A DNA stretch of 64,000 nucleotides, taken from Escherichia coli. Its GTDB lineage: Bacteria > Pseudomonadota > Gammaproteobacteria > Enterobacterales > Enterobacteriaceae. Below, in pieces: positions 54,831 to 57,697 of this stretch. Every line of letters begins with the position of its first letter. The stretch's first letter is position 1. Both the position numbers and the translations under genes were made by a program. The stretch lies in assembly GCF_044647545.1 (NCBI RefSeq), contig NZ_CP172818.1; one strand, written 5' to 3'. Under the pieces are notes generated by a model, which worked only from the letters and a program-made list of their open reading frames with translations, was not told the origin of the DNA and searched no databases.

Positions 54831-55097
54831 TCACACAATAACTCTGAGATCGCAGATTGTTTTACTTTTACAGCTTCCGTCCCCCCATTGTTGGGCAAAT
54901 ATAGATTGGGCCAGAGCACGAAAGTTAATACCACGTTTGCACAGCTCCTCCAACAGCACGACAAGATGCCACATACTGCGCCCCAGTCGGTTCAGTTTAC
55001 AGACTAGCAGTGCGTCCCCTACCGATAATGTCCTGAGCCGTTTGTTCTGTCCGGGCCTGCTGCCACGGTTATGCGCTGCAGTGGTAACTCTAAGCAC
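54831..55097 (-). pseudogene. pinH: Serine invertase (Pin/Hin family) fragment
   Basis: 88-aa ORF with ...GDALLVCKLNRLGRSMWHLVVLLEELCKRGINFRAL..., resembling the middle of Pin-type recombinases; lacks the N-terminal catalytic Ser region and the C-terminal HTH. Confidence 0.7.
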
Positions 55098-55426
55098 GCA
55101 GTTATTCAGTCAGGCGTGGTGCACCGTAACGCTGGTATTGCTGGGTAAGATCAAAAAACTTTCAAGCAGCTAAGGAAAGTTGAACCAGACATTAGATGAA
55201 ATATTTCAACCAATTACAGCACCAGTTCAGACACCGCCAACTCATCAAATAAATCAAGGGGTTACGTGAAAGCGCAGCCCCTTTTACTTTGGTAGTGGCA
55301 GCAAAAGGGTTGTAGTGTAAAGGATAATTCCGTTTAATCAGCCAACAATATATATTATTTCAATCTACGTTATTATCTCTTTTAAAAATAGCCATTTATT
55401 TATCATTGAAAACTGCTTTTAGAACT

Positions 55427-56865
55427 TTATACAAGGGGACTATTCTCCACGGGATCATCCTTAGTGGAAGGATCATCAAAGTCATCATCCATAAATAAAA
55501 TATCATCGAATGGTGCCACGCCCGTGATGAGTTTTATTTTTTTATTACGATCAGACAAGACTCCACTTAAACCGTTTTCGCTGACGCGTTCTAATGATTT
55601 TTCATAACTCTCATTGTTAGCAGGCGTATTAAAAATACACGGAGTATCAACATCAAACAATGACGTCCCCCAGTTCACATATTTAATATCATAGTTACTG
55701 AAGTTCTGTCCAGAAAAGAAGCACCCCTTAAAGTCCAATCCACCTAAATTGTATAAACAACCCTCTTCTTTTGGGAGAGTAATTTTAATTCTGGCTATCT
55801 CCCAGACAAAATTGCCATTTTTGTATTTGAATACCGTTTCAAGATCTCCTCCAGACAGCTTGACTTCTGGAAATAATTTGAAATTAAACCCTACATTATT
55901 ATGTGTCAACGTAGATGAACAAAAGATGGAAAAAGCTTGCAGTGCTGAATTATAGCTATCGATTTTATCTTGAGGCTGCGCTCTTGGTAAAAACTTATAG
56001 CAACACTCATAAAAATTAAGTAGAAACTCTGATGACCTTCCATTTTTATCAAATAATACCCGCTGAAAATGCTGCACAAACTTATTCGTTTTTTCTTGAA
56101 TATCTACGGTGTGTTCCTTTGACTCTGACAAAGATGGAGCCTGTTGAAGTGCATTGCTCATCTGGTTAATGAACATGTGCATTTCTTTAAATTTATCTCC
56201 ATAGTGACCTTTAACTTGCTGCGAGTTTTTAGCTACAGGTGAAATCTTATCTATTTGGTTGTCATATAAATTATGTGATTCCATACAGTCATTTGGCGGC
56301 GTTTCTGAAATAACACTACGTGTTCTACCTGGCTGAAGTGAAGCAACATGAAAATCACTTTTTATTATATTATCGAAAAGGGCCTGTTCATTTTTTTAGC
56401 GGATTGAACATACTGATCAATATTATTTTCTCTCGATAATTTGTTATTTTCAGAAAACACATTTTCTTTAATCTCCGGTTTTAATTTAATGAGAAGATTT
56501 TCCCACTCCTGCTTGCTTAAACATACTACGTCAGGCTCACCATCAGTAACTAACTCTTCATTATTATCAAAGTGTACGTTGAATACTTTTAAGTTATTTT
56601 CATCAACATCATATTTAATACGTTTTAATTGTTCTCCAGCTCCCATAATGACAAAGGCGTTGCCTTCTTGATATATACATTCAGACATTATTTTTTGTAA
56701 AGTTTCAAGAGCACCGCGATACATCCCTGAGGCAGCTTCCTTACAAATTAAATTTATAATACTATAAGCTAGTAGCTCCATGGGGTTGGAAGAATTGTTT
56801 TCATTACAACTTCCACTACCCAAAACTGTATTAACGTTATGACCATTACTTTTACTAACTAACAT
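55427..56865 (-). pseudogene. ypjC: AT-rich hypothetical gene split by a frameshift into 166-aa and 285-aa ORFs (ypjC-like; symbol uncertain)
   Basis: ORFs 56365-56865 and 55427-56284 are collinear on the minus strand in different frames, separated by about 80 nt containing a T7 homopolymer (56391-56397). Confidence 0.65.
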
Positions 56866-57621
56866 TGTCTATTCCTCAGTTAATGTCTACATGGCTATGT
56901 TTAACGTTATTACTGTTTGTCATTATAAAAAACCGCTCATTTGAGACAATTGCTGACATTAACTGTTTCACTTGCTACGCATGGACTTTTTAATTAAATT
57001 AGCACAAGAATGTTAAATTTAATAAACAAAAAGTTATTTCGCTGTATGATAAAAACCAACCGTTATGATTTATTAGTGGAATTCGTTTTTCGAGTGTTAG
57101 AAATTTATATCTAAATAGCGTTAATTAATGAGCAAAGCCAGACTCCTGTAACGCTCATAAGACTCATCTGCCTGCGACGGGTGGTCTGGTCAGTAGTAGA
57201 TGTTTAAGGCGTGGCAGAGACATTTCATCCTTACTCTACGGCATTGGTCCACATACAAATCGTGGTTGTGACACTTCACTTATCATCAGTGAGCGAACAG
57301 AGAATAGTTCAGTGATTTGAGTAATTAACCTGATTAAATGAAAAGGCATGATAAATGATAATACTCTGGCTTTATCGTTAATTACTTAATTCCACATGTA
57401 AGCAATTTGCCCGCTTGGCATAGCGGGCATTTTTTCCAGGTACTTTTGAATGAGTACTGATGGATAAATACATTGCAGTGGCGTGCCACGTACCAAAACA
57501 CCAGCCCTCATTCGAAACCACCTACCGCACTGCTTCTTTAAAATGGCGTTAGTCGTGAAATATTGACCGCCATCGAGTCCCCCTTGTAACCTTAACTCTT
57601 CCTGATACATGAATGATGATT

Positions 57622-57697
57622 TGGTGGCCCCTGCTGGACTTGAACCAGCGACCAGGCGATTATGAGTCGCCTGCTCTAACCACTGAGCTAAAGGGCC
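57622..57697 (-). tRNA. ileY: tRNA-Ile2 (anticodon CAU, lysidine-modified, reads AUA)
   Basis: Reverse complement GGCCCTTTAGCTCAGTGGTTAGAGCAGGCGACTCATAATCGCCTGGTCGCTGGTTCAAGTCCAGCAGGGGCCACCA; cloverleaf with CAT anticodon and encoded CCA. Confidence 0.9.

What the first reader, a model, noticed from the sequence alone, without database searches (positions are those of the whole stretch)
54831..57697. Second decayed horizontally acquired block next to tRNA-Ile(CAU): invertase fragment plus frameshifted AT-rich ORF
Between ypjA and ileY lie a Pin-type serine invertase fragment lacking its catalytic N-terminus (pinH) and a large very AT-rich gene split by a frameshift at a T7 homopolymer (56391-56397) into 166-aa and 285-aa ORFs. 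The T-run contains an in-frame TAG, so slippage could switch the gene on and off. The block is flanked by a tRNA gene, a classical integration target, and followed by another AT-rich gene (ygaQ), suggesting remnants of an older island. The function of the split protein is unknown.
Basis: partly seen in the sequence, partly recalled or inferred. Interest (0 to 1): 0.35.

Follow-up and report, generated by a model that had tools for sequence, protein, structure and literature searches.

The report
Decayed ypjCB pseudogene block near ileY
This is the known pinH'–ypjCB–ileY stretch of E. coli: a relic of an invertase gene plus an E. coli-only gene of unknown function, which this lineage inactivated by losing one A from a run of eight, a fixed lesion and not a demonstrated on/off switch.

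Summary
On the minus strand lie a serine-invertase relic (54897-55070), a 35% GC gene split at an A7 run (plus-strand T7, 56391-56397) into 166-aa and 285-aa ORFs, and tRNA-Ile(CAU) ileY. RefSeq annotates the identical sequence as "YpjCB family protein, frameshifted".

Survey of 5,426 complete E. coli genomes:
- Most alleles carry an interrupted tract (AAAAGAAA or AAGAGAAA).
- A sister clone has A8 and an intact 479-aa gene, otherwise identical to the window's gene.
- All 62 genomes with the window's allele have A7. The six sampled over 14.5 kb form one tight clone, which includes a strain named ST648.
- No mixed state turned up among the rows listed for either clone.

So the frameshift is a fixed slippage lesion, not a demonstrated switch.

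There is no att-like repeat of ileY. ileY lies inside a 10.7-kb AT-rich accessory block (ypjA to ygaQ, 49915-60643) between ssrA and glaH. At least 711 genomes lack the block.

YpjCB is known only from Escherichia/Shigella, evolves fast (dN/dS 0.5-0.8) and is broken independently in many lineages. Its function remains unknown. This is ordinary and already known.

The parts
49915..60643 (.). 10,729-bp accessory block (ypjA, 39-aa ORF, pinH', ypjCB, ileY, ygaQ) between ssrA and glaH. GC is 42.7% overall and 37.4% for its right-hand 6.15 kb.
   Evidence: Boundaries come from BLAST of empty-site genomes (L017, L018) against the window and L008. 711 genomes have ssrA and glaH adjacent.
49924..54492 (-). 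ypjA, an adhesin-like autotransporter (YpjA/EhaD), intact here
   Evidence: RefSeq annotation of the identical record; ORF list
54557..54676 (-). 39-aa hypothetical ORF (WP_001120794.1) just upstream of ypjA
   Evidence: Annotation in L001 and nearly all related loci
54897..55070 (-). pinH': an internal relic of a Gin/Pin-type serine DNA invertase. It matches Gin residues 38-95 only, with no catalytic Ser region and no HTH domain.
   Evidence: PDB phmmer against 4m6f/3uj3, E=2e-13. Pfam Resolvase positions 47-102 of 145. PHROG 125 DNA invertase. PGAP notes 'missing N-terminus and C-terminus'.
55427..56865 (-). ypjCB pseudogene (Pfam DUF5507 + DUF5508; NCBIfam NF050179), frameshifted
   Evidence: NCBIfam 933 bits against a cut-off of 650 for the repaired ORF. 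Pfam. PGAP labels it 'frameshifted'.
56365..56865 (-). Upstream reading frame, 166 aa: the YpjC/DUF5507 part plus 9 out-of-frame codons
55427..56284 (-). Downstream ORF, 285 aa from its first ATG. Its frame is open back to the TAA at 56396-56398.
56391..56397 (-). A7 run (T7 on the plus strand), the site of the -1 lesion. The ancestral states are A8 (intact sister allele) and AAAAGAAA.
56922..56949 (-). Promoter-like site (TTGTCT-16-TATAAT) 57 nt upstream of the ypjCB ATG. It is a consensus match only.
   Evidence: the number of such sites in the region is not above the shuffled expectation.
57622..57697 (-). ileY, tRNA-Ile2 (anticodon CAU, decodes AUA), carried inside the block
   Evidence: ARAGORN; Rfam tRNA, 71.7 bits; RefSeq tRNA-Ile
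58254..60506 (+). ygaQ-like alpha-amylase-family gene, 750 aa, intact here and AT-rich (37.8% GC)
   Evidence: Pfam Alpha-amylase_C E=3.9e-6; annotation; GC. It is a pseudogene in K-12, O157 and others.

Best explanation
The finding covers the middle of a 10.7-kb AT-rich accessory segment of the E. coli chromosome: ypjA, pinH', ypjCB, ileY and ygaQ. The segment lies between the tmRNA gene ssrA and glaH, and its genes are decaying independently in different lineages.

pinH' is a dead internal fragment of a Gin/Pin-type invertase. The same truncation is present in every lineage sampled, so it is old.

ypjCB encodes a roughly 480-aa protein found only in Escherichia/Shigella, of unknown function and under weak constraint. 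In the window's lineage the history is inferred as follows. AAAAGAAA (Lys-Arg) became A8 by a G-to-A transition (Lys-Lys). That state survives, with an intact gene, in a sister clone. One A was then lost by replication slippage, giving A7 and a frameshift with a stop nine codons later. The lesion is fixed in the whole clone, so the gene is simply off.

ileY is cargo of this block, not the site at which the block integrated.

Shown: the anatomy, the allele states, the clone-level invariance and the block boundaries. Inferred: the order of the mutations, slippage as the mechanism, and horizontal origin of the block.
For: - The window is 100% identical to a RefSeq record where PGAP calls the gene 'YpjCB family protein, frameshifted'.
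- Exact-match counts in 5,426 complete genomes: A7 in 62, AAAAGAAA in 58, A8 in 20.
- The A8 allele is an intact 479-aa gene (WP_077516582.1) and differs from the window's gene only by the run length.
- A7 strains from the USA, Bangladesh, Egypt, Korea and China differ by 0-2 bases over 14.5 kb. They differ by 76 bases from the A8 clone.
- A 2.5-kb query with three diagnostic SNPs shows only two classes among the 60 listed rows and no recombinant or revertant class.
- Independent lesions elsewhere:
  - K-12 has a nonsense at codon 161.
  - The AAAAGAAA clone has a nonsense at codon 119.
  - JE86 has AAAACAAAA shortened to A8.
  - 2012C-4227 has a 161-bp deletion plus A8 shortened to A7.
  - GPEC548 has an IS1 insertion.
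- dN/dS between alleles is 0.5-0.8.
- Among 1.84 billion representative proteins the search found one full-length relative and 40 fragments, all at least 55% identical, and no distant homologue.
- The block is absent, with ssrA next to glaH, in 711 genomes.
- Hha binds the ypjC/ileY region in K-12 (PMC2408971).
Against: - Tract length does differ between two related clones, so slippage here is real and in principle reversible. Complete genomes are single colonies and cannot reveal low-frequency subpopulations.
- Only 41 of the 62 A7 genomes were seen individually, and only 6 were aligned over 14.5 kb.
- The direction of the block polymorphism (gain or loss) was not polarised with outgroup species.
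- The empty site carries 333 bp of unrelated sequence, so neither state is a simple derivative of the other.
- A K-12 ypjC deletion had a modest biofilm-colonisation phenotype (PMC3646849), so even a truncated product may not be inert.
Confidence: 0.85

Rival explanations
1. Contingency locus: the A7/A8 run is a phase-variation switch that turns ypjCB on and off by slipped-strand mispairing.
For: One added A restores a 479-aa ORF. A8 and A7 both exist in nature on an otherwise identical gene.
Against: - Each state is confined to its own clone: all 62 A7 genomes match the window's allele, and 19 A8-clone rows keep A8.
- No intermediate class appears among the 60 listed rows.
- In most alleles the tract is interrupted (AAAAGAAA or AAGAGAAA), so it is not a conserved feature of the gene.
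- Other lineages kill the gene by nonsense mutations, IS insertion and deletions.
- From general knowledge, A7-A8 runs in mismatch-repair-proficient E. coli slip orders of magnitude less often than the long G/C tracts or tetranucleotide repeats of true contingency loci.
Confidence: 0.05
2. Recoding: a -1 ribosomal frameshift or transcriptional slippage on the A7 run yields some full-length YpjCB despite the genomic frameshift.
For: The downstream frame is reached by a -1 shift after the AAA AAA codons (read directly from the sequence). Lys AAA runs are known shift-prone sites (established knowledge, for example dnaX A-AAA-AAG).
Against: - The state is derived and recent, since the gene is otherwise identical to the intact A8 allele.
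- The heptamer is T-AAA-AAA, not a canonical X-XXY-YYZ motif.
- No downstream structure is present: folding of 56310-56420 gives z=+0.95, with 173 of 200 shuffles folding at least as well.
- No upstream SD-like element is visible in the sequence.
Confidence: 0.03
3. Remnant of a genomic island that integrated into the 3' end of ileY, with pinH' as its recombinase.
For: The DNA is AT-rich and accessory and carries a recombinase relic. In other strains ileY, described as 'tRNA-Met between ypjC and ygaQ', is a real insertion site for ter-carrying integrative elements (PMC8193136).
Against: - The 25-nt and 16-nt 3' ends of ileY have no second copy on the ypjCB side, and no repeat family involves it beyond a chance 9-mer.
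- No integrase ORF lies in the 756-bp ypjCB-ileY spacer.
- pinH' is an invertase, not an integrase, and no gix/hix-like sites are present.
- AT-rich DNA continues on the other side of the tRNA, in ygaQ.
- In genomes that lack ypjCB, ileY and ygaQ are absent too, and the break-points lie at 49915 and 60643, not at the tRNA.
Confidence: 0.08
4. Sequencing or assembly error in a homopolymer: the gene is really intact.
For: Homopolymer miscounts are common in long-read assemblies (general knowledge).
Against: The same A7 appears in 62 independently assembled complete genomes from many laboratories. A8 is reproduced in 20 others, and each state tracks clone-diagnostic SNPs perfectly in the rows examined.
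Confidence: 0.01

Closest known systems
E. coli K-12 pinH' - ypjC'/ypjB pseudogene cluster (b2648-b2650) between ypjA and ileY
   Same: Same locus, gene order and invertase relic. Same YpjCB gene: Pfam DUF5507 and DUF5508 are literally the K-12 fragments. About 91% nucleotide identity.
   Different: The inactivating lesion differs. K-12 has a CAG-to-TAG nonsense at codon 161 and a 105-bp in-frame deletion. The window has a -1 frameshift at codon 157-158 and no deletion. ygaQ is intact here but broken in K-12.
Homopolymer contingency (phase-variable) loci, e.g. poly-G/C tracts of Neisseria, Haemophilus and Campylobacter
   Same: A mononucleotide run inside an ORF whose length decides the reading frame. 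Both lengths occur in nature.
   Different: The tract is short (7-8), is absent from most alleles, and is invariant within clones in the genomes examined. The behaviour is that of a one-off mutation.
tRNA/tmRNA-associated genomic islands and prophages (CP4-57 at ssrA; ter-carrying elements at ileY)
   Same: AT-rich accessory DNA with a recombinase relic, next to ssrA and containing a tRNA. ileY is a used attB in other strains (PMC8193136).
   Different: No integrase, no att repeats, and boundaries that are not at a tRNA or tmRNA 3' end. The real prophage in this window has its own 16-nt ssrA repeat at 49748-49763 and ends before ypjA.
Gin/Pin/Hin/Cin serine DNA invertases
   Same: 58 residues align to Gin residues 38-95 at E=2e-13.
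   Different: Only about 30% of the protein remains. The catalytic Ser region and the HTH domain are gone, and no crossover sites or invertible segment are present.

Membership tests
YpjCB family (NCBIfam NF050179; Pfam DUF5507 + DUF5508) | Full-length match to the family HMM above the curated cut-off | tested here: met
   The repaired 479-aa ORF scores 933 bits against a cut-off of 650 and covers profile positions 1-460 of 465. DUF5507 matches residues 1-160 and DUF5508 matches 234-479.
YpjCB family (NCBIfam NF050179; Pfam DUF5507 + DUF5508) | Uninterrupted reading frame (a functional member) | tested here: not met
   The -1 frameshift at the A7 run produces a stop at codon 167.
Serine DNA invertase (Gin/Pin/Hin/Cin) | N-terminal catalytic domain with the active-site serine (about residue 9-10) | tested here: not met
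   The alignment starts at Gin residue 38 and at Pfam Resolvase position 47 of 145.
Serine DNA invertase (Gin/Pin/Hin/Cin) | C-terminal helix-turn-helix DNA-binding domain | tested here: not met
   The alignment ends at Gin residue 95 of 193. PGAP notes 'missing N-terminus and C-terminus'.
Serine DNA invertase (Gin/Pin/Hin/Cin) | Inverted crossover sites (gix/hix/pix type) flanking an invertible segment | tested here: not met
   The core pattern AAACCNNGGTTT with up to 1 mismatch gives 2 hits far from pinH', against 2.55 expected by chance. No inverted repeats flank it.
Phase-variable contingency locus (simple-sequence-repeat switch) | A repeat inside the ORF whose length change toggles the frame | tested here: met
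   A8 gives 479 aa, A7 stops at codon 167, and A6 gives an immediate TGA.
Phase-variable contingency locus (simple-sequence-repeat switch) | Tract-length polymorphism among closely related isolates | tested here: not met
   62 exact A7 genomes. All 41 A7-clone rows seen score identically. 19 A8-clone rows keep A8. No intermediate class appears among the 60 listed rows.
Phase-variable contingency locus (simple-sequence-repeat switch) | Tract conserved across alleles of the gene | tested here: not met
   All the other allele types sampled (K-12, JE86, O157 FRIK1989, 2012C-4227, RIVM, 2021CK) read AAAAGAAA or AAGAGAAA.
Phase-variable contingency locus (simple-sequence-repeat switch) | Measured high switching rate | not testable with these tools
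   This needs reporter fusions or deep amplicon sequencing.
tRNA-targeted integrative island | Direct repeat of the tRNA 3' end at the distal island boundary | tested here: not met
   The 25-mer with up to 3 mismatches matches only itself. The 16-mer with up to 2 mismatches has one other match, 52 kb away at 5670.
tRNA-targeted integrative island | Integrase gene adjacent to the tRNA | tested here: not met
   No ORF longer than 74 aa lies in 56866-57621. The only recombinase signal is the invertase relic 2.5 kb away.
tRNA-targeted integrative island | Presence/absence boundary at the tRNA | tested here: not met
   Genomes lacking ypjCB also lack ileY and ygaQ. The boundaries are at 49915 and 60643.
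tRNA-targeted integrative island | Deviant base composition and accessory distribution | tested here: met
   37% GC against 50-56% in the flanks. At least 80% of the pinH'-ypjCB-ileY query is present in 3,024 of 5,426 genomes, and the block is absent with ssrA-glaH adjacency in 711.

The most novel reading that the evidence does not exclude
The A7/A8 run could still be a slow, reversible switch, or a low-level -1 recoding site. It would let the ST648 lineage keep an Escherichia-specific, fast-evolving protein (dN/dS near or above 1 in its middle third) silent but recoverable. That would fit a host- or competitor-facing factor whose expression is sometimes costly. A complete-genome survey of single colonies cannot exclude reversion frequencies below about 1%.
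Probability: 0.05. Interest if true: 0.4.

Novelty: already known. Interest (0 to 1): 0.12.

Why it matters
It matters little on its own. pinH, ypjC/ypjB and ileY are long-annotated K-12 features, and RefSeq already flags this exact gene as frameshifted.

Three modest additions came out of the check:
1. A clean natural series, AAAAGAAA to A8 to A7, shows how a point mutation creates a fragile homopolymer that then frameshifts. This clone-fixed lesion marks all 62 complete genomes that carry the window's allele, apparently the ST648 lineage.
2. ileY, one of only two AUA-decoding tRNA genes in E. coli, is cargo of an accessory AT-rich, AUA-rich block that many strains lack.
3. YpjCB is a taxonomically restricted, weakly constrained gene that is lost repeatedly, usually at A-runs. 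It is a tidy example of ORFan turnover.

Tried and rejected
- **Defence-system or phage origin of YpjCB.** There is no PADLOC hit and no match in 50,697 phage records. Three of the four 'plasmid' hits are 4.8-4.9 Mb records, evidently mislabelled chromosomes; the fourth is a 245-kb record with a 32%-coverage partial match. PHROG 30093 is simply this same family, with unknown function.
- **Distant homologues.** A search of 5.8 billion clusters, an exhaustive phmmer of 1.84 billion representatives and a PDB profile search found nothing beyond Escherichia/Shigella-level relatives. The most divergent fragments sit on short anonymous contigs carrying fragmented copies.
- **Known RNA families in 54400-58400.** Only the tRNA was found.
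- **Frameshift-stimulating RNA structure.** None was found.
- **att repeats and gix-like sites.** None were found.
- **Wasted searches.** The first literature search was wasted because 'pinH' matched 'pinhole'. One Pfam call failed on bad coordinates.
- **Not run.** A scan of GTDB genome contigs for outgroup species was skipped because its cost outweighs the low interest of the finding.
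Full report
**Observation.** The window is E. coli. Positions 54640-57700 are 100% identical to the chromosome of strain FDAARGOS_497. Only 132 of 5,532 matching records are at least 99% identical, and K-12 relatives are about 91% identical.

On the minus strand lie the following features:
- ypjA, 49924-54492.
- A 39-aa ORF.
- An 88-codon ORF, 54831-55097, whose core matches serine recombinases.
- A gene read in two frames: 166 aa at 56365-56865 and 285 aa at 55427-56284.
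- A tRNA with anticodon CAU at 57622-57697.

On the plus strand follows a 750-aa alpha-amylase-family gene at 58254-60506.

GC falls to 33-37% over the split gene and to 29-40% over ygaQ, against 50-56% in smpB-ssrA and glaH-gabD.

The run is T7 on the plus strand at 56391-56397, which is A7 on the coding strand. Adding one base gives a 479-aa ORF, and removing one gives an immediate TGA.

- The invertase relic aligns only to residues 38-95 of the 193-aa Gin invertase (PDB 4m6f/3uj3, E=2e-13). It therefore lacks the C-terminal half as well as the catalytic N-terminus.
- The 'in-frame TAG' is on the non-coding strand. On the coding strand a TAA at 56398-56396 closes the downstream frame at the head of the run.

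**What the split gene is.** RefSeq annotates the identical sequence as 'ypjCB, YpjCB family protein, frameshifted'. The repaired protein scores 933 bits on NCBIfam NF050179, whose cut-off is 650. It is Pfam DUF5507 (residues 1-160) plus DUF5508 (234-479). Those two families correspond to the K-12 fragments YpjC and YpjB. K-12 carries the same gene with a CAG-to-TAG nonsense at codon 161 and a 105-bp in-frame deletion.

Intact copies of 449-492 aa are common in E. coli and Shigella.

The family appears confined to Escherichia/Shigella:
- The 120 best of 429 hits are 78-94% identical, and every hit that carries a source name is from E. coli or Shigella.
- An exhaustive phmmer of 1.84 billion representative proteins found one full-length representative and 40 fragments, all at least 55% identical.

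No phage record carries the gene. Three of the four plasmid-collection matches are 4.8-4.9 Mb records, evidently mislabelled chromosomes, and the fourth is only partial. No defence-system model or solved structure matches it.

Structure prediction failed, with pLDDT 42.5 and 60.6, and the fold searches were non-specific. Function remains unknown. My pentapeptide-repeat/effector lead was not supported.

**Test of the homopolymer idea.** Alignment with other alleles shows that the site normally reads GCT AAG AGA AAT or GCT AAA AGA AAT, an interrupted tract.

I counted exact matches of 67/68-mers in the window-type flanks across 5,426 complete genomes:

| Tract | Genomes |
|---|---|
| A7 | 62 |
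| AAAAGAAA | 58 |
| A8 | 20 |

The A8 allele is an intact 479-aa gene (WP_077516582.1). Its sequence is identical to the window's gene except for the run length. The AAAAGAAA clone has its own nonsense at codon 119.

The most economical history is AAAAGAAA, then a G-to-A change to A8 (Arg to Lys, still in frame), then loss of one A to give A7 and a frameshift. The homopolymer is thus itself a recent by-product of a point mutation.

**Is it switching?** The evidence says no:
- A7 strains from five countries differ by 0-2 positions over 14.5 kb. They are 76 differences from the A8 clone and about 132 from the AAAAGAAA clone.
- A 2,541-bp query from the A8 clone, spanning three clone-diagnostic SNPs plus the tract, gave two score classes among the 60 listed rows.
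  - A8 clone: 16 exact matches, 2 with one mismatch, and 1 with an indel elsewhere. That last strain is L005, whose tract was verified as A8.
  - A7 clone: at least 41 rows at exactly the score expected for three mismatches plus one gap.
  - No row fell at the scores expected for 'A8 clone with A7' or 'A7 clone with A8'.
- The A7 clone includes records named ST648 and IMT16316. The literature describes IMT16316 as ST648.
- The agreement among 62 independent assemblies also rules out a homopolymer sequencing error.

Slippage is supported as the origin of the lesion.

Nothing suggests recoding either. The state is derived, the heptamer is T-AAA-AAA, and the downstream RNA folds no better than shuffles (z=+0.95).

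**Decay is general.** In a sample of lineages the gene is:
- intact in RIVM_C037134, 2021CK-01784, O157 FRIK1989 and the A8 clone;
- nonsense-mutated in K-12 and in the AAAAGAAA clone;
- frameshifted in the window clone, in JE86-ST05 and in 2012C-4227;
- interrupted by IS1 in GPEC548.

All three single-base frameshifts seen lie in A-runs: A8 to A7 twice, and AAAACAAAA to A8 once. That is the expected mutational bias in a 35% GC gene.

Between alleles dN/dS is 0.5-0.8 with dS 0.14-0.17. The C-terminal third is lowest at 0.3-0.5. The middle third exceeds 1 in comparisons with O157, on small counts. This indicates weak constraint, possibly with some diversifying pressure.

ypjA and ygaQ are also broken in several lineages. 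The invertase relic has the same truncation everywhere, so it is old.

**The island idea.** The window contains no second copy of the ileY 3' end. The 25-mer with up to 3 mismatches and the 16-mer with up to 2 give nothing on the ypjCB side. There is no integrase in the 756-bp ypjCB-ileY spacer and there are no gix/hix-like sites.

Comparative data relocate the boundaries:
- 3,024 of 5,426 genomes contain at least 80% of the pinH'-ypjCB-ileY segment.
- 2,865 contain the ypjCB-ileY-ygaQ spacer. In the listed examples of the remainder, only a 76-84 nt tRNA-length stretch matches, presumably the paralogue ileX.
- In 711 genomes ssrA and glaH are adjacent, with a 682-bp spacer.

Aligning that empty site to the occupied one puts the break-points at window 49915, about 150 bp after ssrA and just past a terminator-like hairpin, and at 60643, about 200 bp before glaH. 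The 10,729-bp block is replaced by 333 bp of unrelated sequence, with no repeats at the junctions.

ileY therefore lies inside an accessory block (ypjA, pinH', ypjCB, ileY, ygaQ) and is not the block's integration target.

The literature fits this picture. ileY is a real insertion site for ter-carrying elements in other strains (PMC8193136). E. coli W and B lost it by IS-mediated deletions (PMC3032704). Hha, the H-NS partner, binds the ypjC/ileY region (PMC2408971).

The block's genes are rich in the AUA codon that ileY decodes: 17-28 per 1,000 codons in ypjCB and ygaQ, against 0-2.4 in glaH and lhgO.

The prophage that separates ssrA from ypjA in this window has its own 16-nt ssrA repeat at 49748-49763. 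It is absent from the other strains of the same clone that were examined.

**Verdict.** This is a correctly observed but ordinary and already annotated pseudogene cluster. The frameshift is a clone-fixed slippage lesion in a weakly constrained gene confined to Escherichia/Shigella, not a demonstrated phase switch. The 'tRNA-flanked island' is better described as an old AT-rich accessory block next to ssrA that carries ileY. Interest is low. The residual novel reading, slow reversible switching or low-level recoding, gets about 5%.

Noticed in passing
window 57408-57436 (+): A strong terminator-like hairpin plus T6 (TGCCCGCTTGGCATAGCGGGCA TTTTTT) sits on the plus strand in the ypjCB-ileY spacer, where no plus-strand gene is annotated. 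A promoter-like site lies at 57023-57050 (+). This could be an unannotated small transcript. Rfam finds nothing there, and the small ORFs are unconvincing.
   Followed up: partly
window 27719-27734 and 49748-49763: An exact 16-nt repeat of the ssrA 3' end (CCCGCCAGCTCCACCA) brackets the roughly 22-kb element inserted at ssrA. The other strains of the same clone that were examined (ECONIH1, RS571, 98218, WWCOL-236, ApSLC23) lack the element and have ypjA 160 bp after ssrA.
   Followed up: partly
window 49915-60643 vs L017:3987-4319: In 711 complete genomes the whole ypjA-ygaQ block is replaced by an unrelated 333-bp sequence (39% GC) between ssrA and glaH. One such strain (strain 104, chicken) has flanks 99.5% identical to the window. 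Neither state is a simple derivative of the other.
   Followed up: partly
window 54640-54872: The region upstream of ypjA is 83-86% identical to the ymgJ region elsewhere in thousands of E. coli genomes. This suggests a paralogous autotransporter upstream region.
   Followed up: no
L020 (JE86-ST05) and L022 (2012C-4227), ypjCB: Independent 1-nt frameshifts in other lineages also fall in A-runs: AAAACAAAA to A8 at reference position 609, and A8 to A7 at reference position 776. The RIVM allele carries an in-frame T5A8 at about position 350. The gene is full of fragile A-runs.
   Followed up: yes
window 57622-57697, 55427-56865, 58254-60506: ileY (the AUA decoder) is accessory. It travels with genes unusually rich in ATA codons: 16.7 per 1,000 in ypjCB and 28.0 per 1,000 in ygaQ, against 0 in glaH and 2.4 in lhgO.
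   Followed up: partly
ypjCB codons 166-265 (window ~56070-56370): In the middle third of YpjCB, pairwise dN/dS is 2.9-3.9 in comparisons with the O157 allele. The counts are small. K-12- and O157-type alleles carry a 105-bp in-frame deletion there.
   Followed up: partly
window 58254-60506: ygaQ is intact (750 aa) in this lineage, but it carries internal stops or frameshifts in K-12, O157 FRIK1989, JE86-ST05 and 2012C-4227. Its match to the alpha-amylase catalytic domain is only marginal (20.9 bits against a cut-off of 22).
   Followed up: no
YpjCB protein (L004:7070-8506): PHROG family 30093 (unknown function) is this same protein family at 905 bits, yet no record in the 50,697-phage collection encodes it. 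The family probably entered PHROGs through over-extended prophage predictions next to ssrA.
   Followed up: partly
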